Part shown: piece after piece, positions 1-8,330 of the stretch
How the letters are laid out: the number at the start of each line of letters is the position of its first letter
Position numbering within the stretch: position 1 is the first letter of the stretch
Assembly: GCF_009914755.1 (NCBI RefSeq)
Contig: NC_060947.1
Length of the DNA stretch: 64,000 bases
Direction: 5' to 3' (one strand)
From: the human T2T-CHM13v2.0 reference genome, Homo sapiens
Position numbers and translations under genes: made by a program
The notes under the pieces: model-generated
The model's database searches: none
The model's input: only the letters and a program-made list of their open reading frames with translations
What the model was told of the DNA's origin: nothing

Positions 1-945
1 TTATGGAACCCTGTCTTAGGCAAGCAGCATGAGAAGGGGAGCTCTTGGCCTGCCCGGTGATGCAAGATCAACAAGGCAATACTTATAAAGAGATAAGGAA
101 AAGCATTAGAGAAAAAGAAGCCACTAGCCCATTTATGAAAGGATTAATTGAGACCACAGCAGACTACTTCCATGTGACCCCATGGGACTGGTCAGTGCTA
201 GCTAAAACAACTTTAGAGCCCAGTCAATACCTCCTTTGGAAGGCAGAATATGATGAGTTGTGCAAACAACAAGCCAACCGGATTCAATGTGCCAGGCAAA
301 ACATAATGGCTGCTATGCTCCAGGGCAGTGGTCCCTATGTGAATGTGCAACAACAATTAAGTTTTGTTCCCCAGGCCTGTGCACAAGTGTCTTTGTGTGC
401 TCTCAGGGCTTCGGACCAAATTCTCTAATGCCGAATTCAACAGGTATCTTTTGTAAATATTCGACAAGGGCCTCAGGAGCCATTTGTTGAATTTATCAAT
501 CGGTTAACCCAGGCAATTAAAAAACAATCATGCACAGGCCACTGATATCTTATTGTTGCAGTTGGCTTATGAAAATACTAATGTAGACTGCCAGCAGGCA
601 ATGCAGGAAATCAGAGGAAAGGCAGCTACAGTTGAGAAACTTATATGAGCATGTCAGCTGGTGGGGACTGAAACACACAAATCCAGAATATTGGCTATGG
701 CATTAAAGCCTCCTAACGTGAAAAGGGAGAAAAACCCAAATTGTTTTCTGTGTGAAGAGCCAGGTCATATGAAGCGGGAATGCCCCAATAGTAAAGACCA
801 AAGTAACTCAGAAAAAGTACCCCCCTCTATATGCCCCCAATGTAAAAAGGGGAAACATTGGGCAAATCAATGCAAGTCTAAATTTGATAAAAATGGGAAC
901 CCCCTAAGTAATCAAGTGGGAAATTTAATGCAGGGCCAGCCATAA
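1..945 (+). pseudogene. gag: ERV gag remnant (capsid and nucleocapsid)
   Basis: MHR-like IRQGPQEPFVEFINRL at ~460-507; zinc knuckles CFLCEEPGHMKREC (742-783) and CPQCKKGKHWANQC (832-873); reading frame broken. Confidence 0.92.
918..924 (+). other. Putative gag-pro -1 ribosomal frameshift slippery heptamer G GGA AAT
   Basis: X XXY YYZ pattern in the gag frame just after the second zinc knuckle, where betaretroviruses carry GGGAAAC. Confidence 0.55.
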
Positions 946-1690
946 GCCCCACTCCAAACTGGGGCAATGCCAGCAGCTTTCCTTGGTCAGATGGGAGGCC
1001 CACAATTCTCTTAGAGCAGCCACCTCAGGGAGCCCAGGACTGGACTTACTCTGCCCCAATGAATTAGTGCTAAAAGGAGGAGAAGACCCTAAAAGGGTTG
1101 CAATATGAATCTGGGGCCCACAGCCTCTGGGAACAGTGGGATTAGTCCTAGGGTGATCAAGCATATCCAGTAAAGGAATCAGTGTGCTCACCAGGGTAAT
1201 TGTGATTATCAAGGTGAGATATTAGTTATGTTGCAATGTAAAGGTCTACATATTCTTCCCCCTAAATCTAAAATAGCTCAGTTACCAGTTGTACCATCCT
1301 GGGTCCCCAGCGCCCAGGGAAAGGAAAGGGGAGAAGGAGATTTTGGAAGCACAGGAGCCACAAGAGTATATTGGGACCAATTAATCACTGATCAGAGACC
1401 CATGATTACTTTAAAAATTGGAAATGAAAATTTTACTGGCTTATTAGACACAGGGGCAGACATTTCAATCATTAGTGATCAAAACTTGGCCGTGGGTCAC
1501 TCAGAAACAAAAAAATTGTTGGACTGGGGAAGCACATACAGCCAAGAAGAGCACGCACTCCCTAACATGTAGCGATTCAGAGGGAAGGAAAGCAGTCATA
1601 CACCTCTAATCATGCCCATCCTTGTTAATCTTTGGGGACAGGACCTATCAGCCCAATGAGGGGGTCACTCTGCTGACCCCTTTCTAATAA
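925..1690 (+). pseudogene. pro: ERV pro remnant: dUTPase plus aspartic protease
   Basis: dUTPase motifs GSPGLDL, GLVLG*SS, GVI..DYQGEI, KIAQL, RGEGDFGSTG; protease LLDTGADISII (D at 1447-1449) and NLWGQDL (~1627-1647); candidate pro-pol slippery site CCCTTTC at 1678-1684. Confidence 0.92.
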
Positions 1691-4520
1691 CAGCCACTTA
1701 TTCCTTCCCTGCCCCTGACGTGGCTCTCTCATAATCCAATTTTGGTAGAGCAGTGGCCTTTAAAGGGAGAGAAATTACAAAGAGCCCATGAATTAGTTTA
1801 GGAACAATTAAAAGCTGGCCATATAAAACCATCAAACAAAAGGATGAGTTCATGTCCTTTGTAGGGACATGGATGAAGCTAAAAACCATCATTCTGAGCA
1901 AACTATCGCAAGGACAGAAAACCAAACACCACATGTTCTCACTCATAGGTGGGAGTTGAACAATGAGAACACTTGGACACAGGGTGGGGAACATCACACA
2001 CCGGGGCCTGTCGTGGGGTGGGGGGAGTGGGGAGGGATAGCATTAGGAGATATACCTAATGTAAATGACGAGTTAATGGGTTCAGCACACCAACATGGCA
2101 CATGTATACATATGTAACAAACCTGCATGTTGTGCACATGTACCCTAGAACTTAAAGTAAAAAAAAAAAAAAAAAAAAAACCTATCAAACAGTCCTTGGA
2201 ATTCGCCCATTTTTGTCATTCCCAAAAAATCTGGTAAATGGAGACTTTTGCATGACTTACATGTTATCAATGCTAATTTGCAACCTACGGGGCCCCTTCA
2301 GCAGGGGCTCCCTTCCCCCCGCAGGGATTCCTCGAGATTGGCCCATTGTCATTATTGACTTAAAAAACTGTTTTTATACTGTTCCCCTTGCAAAACAGAA
2401 CAGAAAAAAATTTGTGTTTACAATACCAGCTGTCAATAATGAATGGCCAGCTCGCAGATTTCACTGGAAAGTACTTCCTCAAGGAATGCTAAACAGTCCT
2501 ACCATGTGTCAGTATGATGTAAATCAGCCTTTGCTCCCCAGTAGAAAAGAATTTCCTAATTGCAAGATCATCCATTTTATGGATGATCTCTTACTGGCAG
2601 CCCCAACAGAGCCAATACTTTCAAATGTATATGCCTCTGTCAAAAAGAATACACAGTTAAAAGGTTTAATCATAGCACCTAGAAAAGACAAATGACCTCT
2701 CCTTGGAAATATCTTAAATACATACTAACTTCCCAGTCAGTAAGACCTCAAAAGGTTAAACTGAACACTGACAACTTACACACCTTAAATAATTATCAAA
2801 AATTACTGGGCAATATTAACTGGCTTCGCCCCACCTTGGGCATAACTACTGATAAATTACAGAACCTGTTTTCTATGCTAAAGGGCAATGCAGCCCTGGA
2901 CTCTCCCAGGTATTTAACCCCCGCTGCAAAAAGGGAAATTGAGGAAATAAAGCAAACTATTTCTCAGAGGGAACTAGATCACATAAACCCGTGATATTCA
3001 GTCCAATTATTTGTATTTCCTACTAAACGTTCCCCAACAGGATTAATAGGACACATGGCCCCAGGGCTACATTTCCTGGAATGGGTTTTTTGCTCACATA
3101 CCTGGACTAAAACACTATCTCCCTATGTCCAGCTACTTAGTAAAGTCATCTATACAGGCCGCAGATGATGCAATCAATTGCTAGGTTAAGACCCTGATGT
3201 CATAAGAATACCCTTAAGTAAACAATTTGAAGCAGTCCTGCCCCTATCTCTAAACCTTCAGATAGCACTCTGAATATGCGGGTCATATAAAATGCCCTTC
3301 CCGCTGACTATTCCAGTTCTTATCTCATACTCCTATAGTTATACCTACAAAGGTAGTTCACTCCCCAATACCTAACGCTTTAACACTTTTCACTGATGGC
3401 TCTGGTAAAAATGGAAAAGCAGCTATTTGGTAGGAACCGCATAACTCCCTCACTCAATCTGGATTTACTAGTACTCAGAGAGCTGAGGTTAAAGCCCTAA
3501 TATTGGCCCTAGAAACTCTTTCCGCTCAGCATATCAATATTGTTAGTGACTCTGCTTACTCTGTTTATTTATTGCAGAACCTTGAGACAGCCCTCATTAA
3601 GTCCACTGTCAATCCCACCCTGTGTGGACTTTTTCTTCAACTTCAGCAATTGCTGGATCAATGTACATATCCTATTTTTATTACACACATTCAGGCCCAC
3701 AGCTTGCTTCCCGGTCCACTAATTCATGGCAATGATCAAGCAGACCTGCCGGTTATGACGTCACTGCTTGACCAAGCCACCCAATCGCATCAATTGTTCC
3801 ACTAAAATTGGAGAAACTTAACAATTTCAACTTACCCAAAGACTAAACAAATTATTTTACAGTGACCAGATTGCCAGCTCACAGGCACATCCCCTCCTTC
3901 AACAAGTGTTAACCCTAGAGGACTAGAACCTAATCAATTATGGCAAACAGATGTTACACACATCCCTAAATTTGGAAAACTAAGATATGTACATATATCC
4001 AGTGATACCTATTCCCACCTAATTAGTGCTTATGCTCTTCCTGGAGAGTCTGACCAATATATCATTAAACATCTTAACTTTTGCGTTTATGGGATGGCCC
4101 ACAGAAATTAAAACTGATAATGGTCCGGCTTATGCCAGCTCACAGTTTCACAAGTTTTGTCACACATGGAACATCCAACATTCCACAGGCATCCTGTATA
4201 ACCCCCAAGGACAGGCCATAGTAGAACATGTCCACCCCACCCTTAAAAATGTACTCAGAAAACAAAAAAGGGGGAATATGAGTAAGGACCCTATAACACT
4301 ATTGGCACAAGCCTTATTTACCCTTGACTTTTTAAATTTAGATAAATTTCAATCAGCCATAGAAAAGCATTTTGTAAAACCCCCTTAAGACACAAAACCC
4401 ACGGCTTTCTGGAAAGATGTAAATAGTAATGTATGGTGTGGTCCAAATGATTTGTTAACATGGGGAAGACAATATGCTCGTGTTCACACCCCCTCAGGTC
4501 CGCTTTGGACAGCACACCAA
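1690..4520 (+). pseudogene. pol: ERV pol remnant (RT, RNase H, integrase), interrupted by an L1 insertion
   Basis: [52 protein letters not shown] (2576-2587), FTDGS, NIVSDSAY, WQTDVTH, KTDNGPAY, YNPQGQAIVE. Confidence 0.95.
1839..2176 (+). mobile_element. 5'-truncated L1PA (L1PA4/5-like) 3' end inserted in ERV RT
   Basis: L1 3'UTR with G-rich tract and poly(A); TSD aaaaccatcaaaca (1825-1838) / aaaacctatcaaaca (2177-2191); RT sequence resumes after the second TSD copy. Confidence 0.95.
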
Positions 4521-4529
4521 ACCATATTG

Positions 4530-6255
4530 TGGTGTGGCTAGGACCCAACCTGGTACCAGAAATGAAGAAAATGACCCTGCAGGACCCACAGCCCCAGACG
4601 ATGCGGCTTCCTTGGATGACACAGACCTTGGATATTACCTGGGGGATGCTGAAGATGACAACTCAGAAGGCTGAGTGAATCCTGCTCTGGACACAGATGC
4701 CATTCACTCCAGAAAATTTGTTCCTTGCTATGCTTTCTGTTGTACACTGCAACTCTCATAGGTTATTAACCTTTCTTATTCTCTCACTCTGCCTGCAACC
4801 CGTACCTGCTACCTCTATTGGGCCCATCTTCTGGATCTGCCCTTCTTTCACCCTGTTACTTGGGCGGACACCCCCTTCCCAGCCTCTAACAATGTGACTA
4901 CTTGGCTAGGAGGGATTGACATACCCCCAGCAGGGTCCCTCATTAATGGCACACATTGGACTAAGATGCCAGGTAACACTACATATCACTTCACTATCCT
5001 CCCACTGTGTGTAAGTTATAAAAGTTCTAACCCCTACTCTGTACCTGCCTAAACATAATTATAGCTACATCATGGCAAAGGAAATGCCTTAACATTCTTG
5101 GTTGCCTCAAACCAGGCAACGCAACCAATGCCACTTTCCCGACATTCCTCCCTGTGCTAAAGAACAAAGGCAGGAAAGTAATGGATTCCACTTTGGCTGG
5201 GAGATCTGTCATAGGGGACAAGCCCATAGCCTCCAGTTAGGCGATTATAACATCATAGACTGGAGCCACCACAGCCACTTGCAGGCTAACCATACTGATG
5301 TCCGCATCCATCGTGGCATCAATCACAGTTTCGTAGGCACATCCCATTCCCCTATGATTTGGGCTGATGGGGGGATGGGATATTCCAGACCCCAAATTAA
5401 GTCCATGCCTCTCCAAGACACTTTATGGTGCCTGGGACATCTTAGCACCACCCTTAAAACCTGGCATAGGAAATATCAAAATTCCAGTAACAATTATAGT
5501 ATGACCTTTATTCGTAATTACACAGTTCAATGCCTGATTTGCACTTCCCATCCATACATTTTCCTTATGGAAACCAGTATTTCCATAACACCCCAAAACT
5601 CCACGTTTGTGACCTGAGTGCAGGGACAGACTTGGTTCGCCTCATGTATCACTAATTACAATATATCTAATTTAAATATTACTAGTGTCATGGTATTAAG
5701 AAGACAATCGGAGGCATTACTACCGGTCAATTTGACACCTGATTGGCAAGGTTCATCTGTTCTTGCCACCTTAGAGTGAGCCCTGTCCCAGGTCAGACAC
5801 AAAAGATTCATAGGTACACTTATAGCCTTTATAAGTCTCAGCCATAGTCATCCTAGCCACTGCTAGTGTTGCTGTTGCATCTATTACTGAATTGGTACAA
5901 ACAGCTACCTTTGTGGATAGCTTAGCCAGAAATGTGTCTAATGAACTTCTCCTACAGCAGGGTATAGATAAAAAAATTCTTGCACGTCTGCAAGCCCTTG
6001 AGGCGCCTTGGAATATGTAGGGGAACGACAAGATGCACTGGCATTCCAACAGCAATTAAACTGCGACTGGGAACATAAGCATATTTGTGTCACCTCTCTA
6101 CCACGGAATCAATCAATATGTAGTTGGGATGAGGTGAAACAACACCTCTGGGGAACCTTACATGATAATTTAACAGCAGACATAAAGCAACTTAAAACTA
6201 AAATGCAAGAATCCCTAAATGCCATAGATCTACATGCCCAACAAACAGCCATATG
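4530..6255 (+). pseudogene. env: ERV env remnant (leader, SU, TM ectodomain), truncated before the membrane anchor
   Basis: Hydrophobic signal segment LLTFLILSLCLQPVPA; furin site RHKR (5795-5806) followed by hydrophobic fusion peptide; TM CX7C motif CDWEHKHIC (~6062-6088). Confidence 0.88.
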
Positions 6256-6431
6256 GAAGGATCATCTAATAAATAGGGCTTGGTTAAATTATTATTTTTG
6301 GAAACATAAATTAAAATTGGAGCCCTATATCCAACTATACAAGAAAATCAATCCCAGGTAAATTAAATACAGACATGTAGTTAAAAATCACACATGTACA
6401 CAAATTAGAATAATGTATGGTTGAATATTAA
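6256..6431 (+). repeat. 176-bp inverted duplicate of 7685-7860 (old L1 ORF2-derived sequence)
   Basis: Manual alignment with the reverse complement of 7685-7860: 8 substitutions, no indels. Confidence 0.95.
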
Positions 6432-7639: not shown

Positions 7640-8330
7640 ATTTACTTTTGTACTTAAATAGGTCTTCCTTGACCAGGAATCAAATTAATATTTAACCATA
7701 CATTATTCTAATTTGTGTACGTGTGTGATTTTTAACTACATTTCTGTATTTAATTTACCTGGGATTGATTTTGTTGTATAGTTGCATATATGGCTCCAAT
7801 TTTAATTTATATTTCCAAAAATAATAATTTAACCAAGCCCTATTTATTAGATTATCCTTCTTAATTAAACAGTAATTGTTTAGGTAAAACTTGATCTGTT
7901 TCTGGATTTTATGTTTCAGAGATCTCTCTATTCCTGCACTTTTCCACAGTATTGTAATAATTAGCATTTTAATATAGATTCTAATATACAGCACTGGAAG
8001 TTACCTTCTTCTAATTTTTTTGTTAATTCTTTCAAAAAGAAGTTTAGAATCATTTTGTTAAGTTAAAAGATAGCCATAATTTATCCAGAATATAATTTAA
8101 GTGAATGAGAATTTGTCTTTATATGAGTCTTTTTCACACAGAAATTGATTACCTCTTTCCATTTATGCATATCTTTTATATACTTTAGTAATTATATTTT
8201 GATATAAAATCCCATATCATTTATAACATTGTATTAAGTTTATTATTACCAGAGATTTTACATTTTTGATCACTAGCAGTAAGATCTTTTTTTCCACATT
8301 TTAAAATTAATGATTAGAAAAGATTGCTGT
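7640..8330 (-). mobile_element. Highly decayed L1M/L1ME ORF2 fragment
   Basis: Minus-strand translation KDNLINRAW...KLKLEPYMQLYNKINPR resembles L1 ORF2 [10 protein letters not shown]...[17 protein letters not shown]. Confidence 0.6.

What the first reader, a model, noticed from the sequence alone, without database searches (positions are those of the whole stretch)
1260..3000. Provirus carries dense GA>AA (APOBEC3-type) hypermutation
Seen: residues normally conserved in betaretroviral Pol are repeatedly D>N, E>K or G>K, each explained by plus-strand G>A mostly in GA context. Examples: GHIKP (1826, expected E), DLKNCF (2366, D), LAKQNRKKF (2393/2399/2405; HML-2 has LAEQDCEKF), YLKY (2716, G), LNNYQKLLGNINW (2791/2812; HML-2 has LNDFQKLLGDINW), HINP (2986, D), and probably dUTPase PPKSKIAQ (1264, G). 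Most TGG codons survive. Known: APOBEC3 deaminates minus-strand cDNA; A3G prefers GG>AG, while A3F/A3D/A3H-type enzymes prefer GA>AA. Inference: this copy was edited during reverse transcription by a non-A3G-like enzyme and was dead on arrival, a fossil of early primate antiviral activity given the age of HML-5.
Basis: partly seen in the sequence, partly recalled or inferred. Interest (0 to 1): 0.8.

Follow-up and report, generated by a model that had tools for sequence, protein, structure and literature searches.

The report
Lightly APOBEC3-edited ancient provirus fossil
An old, broken retrovirus copy on the human X chromosome carries a modest but real excess of the G-to-A changes that antiviral APOBEC3 enzymes leave, a kind of scar already well known in human endogenous retroviruses.

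Summary
Window 1-6262 is the internal part of an old betaretrovirus-like provirus (gag-pro-pol-env). Its 5' LTR lies just upstream of the window, an L1 3' end is inserted at 1831-2183, and the 3' end is missing. I compared it with up to 35 paralogous copies from the same genome.

The copy is not densely hypermutated. Its mean divergence (0.141) and terminal branch (0.075, 17th of 30) are ordinary, and G>A makes up 47 of 206 private differences.

There is still a specific signal. Outside CpG, G>A is 73/920 against C>T 38/1146 (rate ratio 2.39, the most significant of 36 copies). The excess sits in GA context. In W 1-4000 that is 28/177 (15.8%) against 5.2% in the other copies, rank 1 of 36. GG, GC and GT contexts show no excess, the mirror TC>TT shows none, and W 4001-6000 shows none. 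That amounts to about 19 extra changes.

Best reading (about 0.6): light, patchy editing by a GA-preferring APOBEC3 during reverse transcription. "Dense" and "dead on arrival" are overstated. This kind of scar has already been surveyed genome-wide.

The parts
1..6262 (+). Internal part of a betaretrovirus-like provirus (gag CA/NC, pro, pol RT-RNaseH-IN, env to TM), much broken by stops and frameshifts. Its 5' LTR lies at window -1029..-496, and no 3' LTR is found in the window.
   Evidence: Pfam hits Gag_p24, zf-CCHC, RVP, RVT_1, RVT_thumb, RNase_H, rve and GP41. Collinear alignment to an extended chr6 paralogue. The LTR search of the whole window found no second LTR. The fragmented frames are listed.
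1831..2183 (+). L1 3'-end insertion with poly(A), absent from all paralogues and excluded from all counts.
   Evidence: It appears as a window-only stretch in the alignment. The paralogue alignment overlaps by 9 nt across it, which indicates a target-site duplication, and a 91% identical copy lies at window -6859..-6515.
1260..3000 (+). The flagged stretch (pro end and RT). It shows a plus-strand G>A excess in GA context.
   Evidence: Non-CpG G>A 22/222 against C>T 8/269. GA context 12/72 against 5.0% in the others. All 12 named positions have G in most other copies.
1..4000 (+). Full extent of the GA>AA excess (gag to RNase H/IN start), peaking in 2184-3000.
   Evidence: GA-context G>A 28/177 against 5.2% in the others, rank 1 of 36, z 3.7. 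By bin: 9/50, 4/50, 9/37, 6/40. The pairwise, consensus-free ratio is 753/410 in GA context against 963/923 in other contexts.
4001..6000 (+). IN-env stretch without the excess.
   Evidence: GA-context G>A 4/78 against 4.7% in the others. By bin: 0/43 and 4/35. Heterogeneity against 1-4000 gives Fisher p 0.02.
4264..4276 (+). Purine tract (an A run followed by a G run) inside IN. It is kept in most copies and resembles the tract just before the 3' LTR of a paralogue. No function is shown.
   Evidence: it is one of 8 purine runs of 12 nt or more. The same tract is present in most of the 28 aligned copies.
6256..6431 (.). Left arm of an inverted repeat (the partner is 7685-7860) at the point where the provirus breaks off. 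It is L1-like sequence.
   Evidence: 95.5% identity over 176 nt on opposite strands. Similar L1-ORF2-like reading frames occur on both strands.

Best explanation
I could not check that name against a reference. Its minus-strand cDNA was lightly and patchily deaminated by a TC-preferring APOBEC3 during the reverse transcription that preceded integration. A TC preference on the minus strand reads as GA>AA on the plus strand. The enzyme would be of the A3F/A3D/A3H/A3C type, not the A3G type. Editing left roughly 19 extra GA>AA changes in gag-pro-pol. These sit on top of about 7.5% ordinary post-integration decay, which accounts for most of the copy's differences.

Shown here: the excess, its strand specificity, its dinucleotide specificity and its specificity to this copy. 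Inferred: the enzyme class, the timing before integration and any loss of function.
For: Strand bias outside CpG: G>A 73/920 against C>T 38/1146, ratio 2.39, Fisher p 4.8e-6, BH q 1.7e-4. This is the most significant of 36 copies.

Context: in W 1-4000, GA 28/177 against non-GA 28/438 (OR 2.75, p 3.5e-4). The other copies have a per-copy GA mean of 0.052, sd 0.029, max 0.111. The window copy is rank 1 of 36, z 3.7.

Controls: non-GA G>A is not raised (OR 1.31, p 0.17), and the mirror TC>TT is 5/157 against 3.4%.

Robustness: rank 1 of 36 in 6 of 6 settings of threshold and context source.

Consensus-free pairwise counts: 753/410 in GA context (rank 1 of 36) against 963/923 in other contexts.

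Placement: the copy is nested in the family tree, so its private A alleles are derived.

Selection: 19 non-synonymous against 2 synonymous among the assignable GA>AA changes, against 119:20 possible. The changes were therefore not filtered by selection.

Literature: GA>AA is reported as the A3D/F/H signature, and human ERVs are reported to show GG>AG or GA>AA (passages read in PMC6955324, and PMC4866542).
Against: The load is small. The terminal branch is 0.075, 17th of 30. Mean pairwise divergence is 0.141, which is typical, and the all-site A|G:G|A ratio is only 1.09, 7th of 30. G>A is 47 of 206 strictly private differences.

Under the strict private rule the strand ratio of 2.16 is 3rd of 30.

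Three other copies (L010, L007, L013) also pass a 2-fold, q<0.1 strand-bias rule, so this copy is the top of a continuum.

There is no excess in W 4001-6000 (4/78). That is not the 5'-to-3' rise expected with a single 3' plus-strand primer.

GT context is also fairly high (12/118).

Tandem GG>AA (4) is matched by CC>TT (3).

The frames used for the synonymous/non-synonymous count are crude (the longest open stretch at each site).
Confidence: 0.6

Rival explanations
1. Ordinary post-integration decay only. The GA>AA excess is the upper tail of copy-to-copy scatter, noticed because a reader scanning many windows flags whatever looks striking.
For: Overall divergence and branch length are ordinary. 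Per-copy GA rates are over-dispersed: sd 0.029, with other copies reaching 0.111, or 0.145 in 2184-4000. With a 90% threshold z falls to 2.6-2.8. Two of the 12 named sites are shared or CpG-derived.
Against: The copy ranks 1 of 36 in all 6 settings. The excess is confined to one context and one strand, while the non-GA and mirror TC contexts sit at family level. The binomial tail is 1.6e-7 for 28/177 at the others' rate. The consensus-free counts agree.
Confidence: 0.25
2. The A alleles were inherited from a replicating ancestor lineage that had accumulated sub-lethal APOBEC3 changes over many cycles. The editing is real but older than this integration, and the copy need not have been crippled.
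For: Several sites are shared with 2-6 other copies. W-lineage C>T changes lean synonymous (10 synonymous against 6 non-synonymous, where 34% synonymous is expected), which hints that part of the branch predates integration.
Against: GA>AA changes are 19 non-synonymous against 2 synonymous, as expected without selection. Most are private or shared with at most 1 copy, and the sharers are scattered rather than clade-mates.
Confidence: 0.1
3. A strand-asymmetric mutation process acting on the chromosome after integration made the GA>AA excess. Candidates are replication- or transcription-linked asymmetry, or deamination of genomic single-stranded DNA.
For: This was not tested directly, because flanking repeats were not polarised. 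A plus-strand lncRNA gene lies about 15 kb upstream, according to the hub's annotation.
Against: The same provirus shows no excess in W 4001-6000 (4/78 against 28/177, p 0.02). Known germline strand asymmetries are far smaller than 3-fold (my own knowledge, not a call).
Confidence: 0.05

Closest known systems
APOBEC3G-hypermutated HERV-K(HML-2) proviruses (Esnault et al. 2008, PMC2531183, passages read; Lee, Malim and Bieniasz 2008, seen only as a reference entry, paper not held)
   Same: An endogenous betaretrovirus copy with plus-strand G>A in excess of C>T, judged against sister copies. No clear gradient along the provirus was reported there either.
   Different: Those copies show GG context (A3G), with more than 70% of G>A at GG in two heavily hit proviruses, and no GA signal was found in HML-2. 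Here the context is GA, GG is at background (11/170), the load is light and the family is much older.
Genome-wide screens of edited ERVs (Ito, Gifford and Sato 2020, PMC6955324, passages read; Knisbacher and Levanon 2016, PMC4866542, passages read)
   Same: The same test idea: strand bias of G>A per ERV copy plus dinucleotide context. They report human ERVs with GG>AG or GA>AA and single hypermutated copies. This copy would pass the Ito-type rule (log2 ratio 1.26, q 1.7e-4).
   Different: I could not see whether this locus or its family is in their lists. The supplements of PMC4866542 were not readable and I did not open those of PMC6955324.
GA>AA hypermutants of HIV-1 made by A3F/A3D/A3H (stated in the passages; other details from my own knowledge)
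   Same: The dinucleotide preference and the plus-strand specificity.
   Different: HIV hypermutants usually carry far heavier loads and a 5'-to-3' gradient reset at the central polypurine tract. Here the net change is about 11% of GA sites over 4 kb, with a patchy profile.

Membership tests
   Pfam Gag_p24, two zinc-knuckle models, RVP, RVT_1, RVT_thumb, RNase_H, rve and GP41, in that order on the + strand.
   44 matches in the same genome; the 29 paralogues fetched as loci are 83-87% identical. A 5' LTR lies at window -1029..-496 by alignment to a paralogue with two LTRs. The 3' LTR is absent.
No Dfam or Repbase reference was on hand. HML5 = LTR22A-HERVK22 is stated in PMC5667498.
APOBEC3-edited provirus | Plus-strand G>A exceeds C>T outside CpG | tested here: met
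   73/920 against 38/1146, ratio 2.39, q 1.7e-4, top of 36 copies.
APOBEC3-edited provirus | Excess confined to an APOBEC3 target dinucleotide (GA or GG) and absent from the mirror context | tested here: met
   GA 28/177 against non-GA 28/438. GG 11/170 is at background. TC>TT is 5/157 against 3.4%.
APOBEC3-edited provirus | Signal specific to the copy compared with sister copies | tested here: met
   Rank 1 of 36 in 6 of 6 settings, z 2.6-3.8. Three other copies also pass a looser strand-bias rule.
APOBEC3-edited provirus | Changes present at integration (shared by all orthologues) | not testable with these tools
   No primate genomes are held.
   G>A is 47 of 206 private differences. The terminal branch is 0.075, 17th of 30. 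Mean divergence is 0.141.
   GA rates by bin are 0.18, 0.08, 0.24, 0.15, 0.00 and 0.11. The counts are too small to read a gradient, and the 3' end is missing.

The most novel reading that the evidence does not exclude
The editing profile records how this extinct betaretrovirus made its plus strand. GA>AA is high up to about W 4000, absent in 4001-5000 (0/43) and returns in 5001-6000 (4/35). A family-conserved purine tract at 4264-4276 in IN resembles the tract before the 3' LTR. This would fit a central plus-strand priming site of the lentiviral cPPT type, which I do not know to be described for this group (my own knowledge; I made no search for it).
Probability: 0.06. Interest if true: 0.5.

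Novelty: new member of a known kind. Interest (0 to 1): 0.2.

Why it matters
If the reading holds, this copy is one more dated trace that TC-preferring APOBEC3 enzymes were acting on betaretroviruses in early simian ancestors. The terminal branch of 0.075, divided by the 2.2e-9 per site per year quoted in PMC6955324, gives roughly 34 million years. That figure is an inference.

The copy adds no new mechanism. Per-copy screens of human ERVs for exactly this signature are already in print.

Its practical value is as a caution. A list of D>N, E>K and G>K changes looks like dense hypermutation to the eye, but the measured excess is about 19 changes.

Tried and rejected
One search is invalid and unused. 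Loci that matched on the minus strand were stored in genome orientation, so the first alignment mixed strands. I redid it.

Tandem GG>AA as a signature: the window copy has 4, the most of 30, but also 3 CC>TT, so this is not informative.

The +2 and -1 neighbours of the GA>AA sites were read by eye. I saw no clear preference and did not test it.

Seven smaller stretches were fetched instead.

Literature searches for the family name with APOBEC3: in the listings I saw, no paper had the family name with editing in its title or abstract. I read only listings and the passages named elsewhere in this report.

The supplements of PMC4866542 were not readable, so whether this family or locus is already listed as edited remains open.

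I did not assign the copy's stop codons to mutation types.

Full report
WHAT IS THERE

Window 1-6262 (+ strand) reads as the internal part of a retroviral provirus. Pfam finds Gag_p24, two zinc-knuckle models, RVP, RVT_1, RVT_thumb, RNase_H, rve and GP41 in that order. They lie in frames broken by many stops and shifts.

Alignment to an extended paralogue on contig 6 places the 5' LTR at window -1029..-496 and the internal region from -499 to 6262. No second LTR is found anywhere in the window. The provirus breaks off at an L1-like inverted repeat, 6256-6431 against 7685-7860, at 95.5% identity.

An L1 3' end with poly(A) is inserted at 1831-2183. It is a window-only stretch, and the paralogue alignment overlaps by 9 nt across it. 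I left it out of every count.

The same genome holds at least 44 matching places, and the 29 paralogues I fetched as loci are 83-87% identical to the window copy. I had no named reference to test it against.

COMPARISON SET AND METHOD

I used 29 paralogues (L002-L030). Later I added 7 gag-pro stretches (L034-L040) and dropped L014, which is a near-identical duplicate of L017. That leaves 35 other copies.

I made no family consensus sequence. Counts are of two kinds:
- plain copy-against-copy counts;
- site tallies in which a site counts when at least 75% of the aligned other copies (at least 8) share one base.

Sites at present or decayed CpG were set aside. The same procedure was run with every copy in turn as the focal copy, so the family gives the null distribution.

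The first alignment mixed strands and is void.

THE NAMED SITES

At all 12 of 12 positions checked, the window has A and most other copies have G:

| Position | Other copies with G |
|---|---|
| 1264 | 15/17 |
| 1265 | 15/17 |
| 1826 | 29/33 |
| 2366 | 26/28 |
| 2393 | 19/28 |
| 2399 | 26/28 |
| 2405 | 25/28 |
| 2716 | 25/28 |
| 2717 | 25/28 |
| 2791 | 24/28 |
| 2812 | 18/28 |
| 2986 | 28/28 |

Position 2393 is shared with 8 copies. Position 2812 is shared with 10 and lies at a decayed CpG. Those two are not specific to this copy.

NOT A DENSELY HYPERMUTATED COPY

- Mean pairwise divergence is 0.141, inside the family range of 0.123-0.176.
- Over all sites, the window has A where another copy has G 2991 times and the reverse 2732 times. 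The ratio is 1.09, 7th of 30. Outside CpG it is 1.14, 5th of 30.
- In a tree of W 2184-4990 the copy is nested with L012, L028, L002, L003 and L004. Its terminal branch is 0.075, 17th of 30.
- Of 206 strictly private differences over 5262 sites, 47 are G>A, 27 C>T, 34 A>G, 22 T>C and 76 transversions. In 1260-3000 the split is 11, 6, 7, 9 and 20.

A SPECIFIC EXCESS IS STILL THERE

Outside CpG over W 1-6000, G>A is 73/920 and C>T is 38/1146. The rate ratio is 2.39, Fisher p is 4.8e-6 and BH q is 1.7e-4, the most significant of 36 copies. L010, L007 and L013 also pass a 2-fold, q<0.1 rule.

The excess lies in GA context. In W 1-4000:

| Context | Window copy | Other copies |
|---|---|---|
| GA | 28/177 (15.8%) | per-copy mean 5.2%, sd 2.9%, max 11.1% |
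| GG | 11/170 | not raised (non-GA pooled 5.4%) |
| GC | 5/150 | not raised |
| GT | 12/118 | not raised |

The window copy ranks 1 of 36 for the GA rate, z 3.7. Against the pooled others, GA has OR 3.64. Non-GA G>A is not raised (OR 1.31, p 0.17). The mirror TC>TT is 5/157 against 3.4%.

The rank stays 1 of 36 in all 6 combinations of threshold (0.6, 0.75, 0.9) and context source, with z 2.6-3.8.

The consensus-free pairwise sums agree. In GA context they give 753 against 410 (1.84, rank 1 of 36). In other contexts they give 963 against 923.

At the others' rate, 9.2 GA>AA changes are expected in W 1-4000 and 28 are seen, so about 19 are extra.

In the flagged 1260-3000 the figures are G>A 22/222, C>T 8/269 and GA 12/72 against 5.0%.

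WHERE THE EXCESS LIES

GA-context rates by bin:

| Bin (W) | GA>AA |
|---|---|
| 1-1000 | 9/50 |
| 1001-1830 | 4/50 |
| 2184-3000 | 9/37 |
| 3001-4000 | 6/40 |
| 4001-5000 | 0/43 |
| 5001-6000 | 4/35 |

The others run at 4-8% throughout. The contrast between 1-4000 and 4001-6000 (28/177 against 4/78) has Fisher p 0.02.

This is not the simple rise towards the 3' end expected with one plus-strand primer. Esnault et al. likewise saw no clear gradient in hypermutated HML-2 copies (PMC2531183, passage).

SELECTION

I assigned frames crudely, as the longest open stretch at each site. On that basis 19 GA>AA changes are non-synonymous and 2 are synonymous, with 7 unassigned. The possible changes at all GA sites split 119:20. 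The changes therefore look unfiltered by selection. That fits the last replication cycle or later, not long evolution in a replicating lineage.

I did not show that they disabled any protein.

READING

A plus-strand-only, GA-only, copy-specific excess is what a TC-preferring APOBEC3 acting on minus-strand cDNA leaves. GA>AA is given as the mark of A3D, A3F and A3H, and GG>AG as that of A3G (passages).

I put light editing before integration at about 0.6. The rivals are:
- alleles inherited from an edited ancestor lineage (0.1);
- a strand-asymmetric process at the locus (0.05).

The last is disfavoured because the 3' third of the same provirus lacks the excess. The decisive test is whether primate orthologues all share the A alleles, and it could not be run here.

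COMPARISON WITH PRINT

Esnault et al. 2008 found GG-type traces in HML-2 and no GA signal. Knisbacher and Levanon 2016 report GG and/or GA motifs in primate LTR elements, with ERVK prominent. Ito et al. 2020 scored every human ERV copy for G>A strand bias and report GG>AG or GA>AA and single hypermutated copies.

By the Ito-type rule this copy would qualify. I saw passages of these papers only. The supplements of PMC4866542 were unreadable and I did not open those of PMC6955324. Whether this locus is already listed is therefore open.

In the listings, no title or abstract ties this family to APOBEC3 editing.

Noticed in passing
window 1831-2183 and upstream -6859..-6515 (L031): An L1 3' end with poly(A) is inserted in the RT region, with a 9-nt overlap of the paralogue alignment across it (a target-site duplication). 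A 91% identical L1 3' end lies about 8.7 kb upstream.
   Followed up: partly
window 6256-6431 and 7685-7860: An inverted repeat, 95.5% identical over 176 nt, sits exactly where the provirus breaks off. It has L1-ORF2-like frames on both strands. The 3' env end and the 3' LTR are missing from the window.
   Followed up: partly
L014 and L017 (contig 23, 147.99 and 147.94 Mb, opposite strands): Two copies of the family are almost identical (terminal branches 0.000 and 0.001). This points to an inverted segmental duplication rather than two integrations.
   Followed up: no
paralogues L004, L005, L007-L013, L016, L022, L024, L025, L028-L030: These 16 of the 29 paralogues align to only 86-233 of the 571 bases of W 1260-1830. 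Most of them also match the first bases of the window, and the two that do not (L010, L025) start exactly at W 1663. This looks like a shared internal deletion of most of gag-pro, that is, a deleted form that was itself amplified.
   Followed up: no
contig 24 (many places): About a dozen copies at 74-79% identity lie on contig 24. Several have near-equal scores, as expected for ampliconic duplication rather than separate integrations.
   Followed up: no
L010 (contig 12, 43.93 Mb) and L037 (contig 23, 100.62 Mb): L010 has a G>A:C>T rate ratio of 2.6, with GG context 9/56 against GA 3/83, so it may carry GG-type editing. L037 has GA 13/118 against non-GA 8/263, so it may be a second GA-type copy.
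   Followed up: partly
window 4264-4276: A purine tract (an A run then a G run) lies inside IN. It is kept in most of the 28 aligned copies and resembles the tract before the 3' LTR of the chr6 paralogue. GA>AA is 0/43 in W 4001-5000.
   Followed up: partly
window 1-4000: The copy's lineage-specific C>T changes are 10 synonymous against 6 non-synonymous, where about 34% synonymous is expected. The copy also has the lowest T|C:C|T pairwise ratio of 30 (0.72). Part of its branch may predate integration.
   Followed up: no
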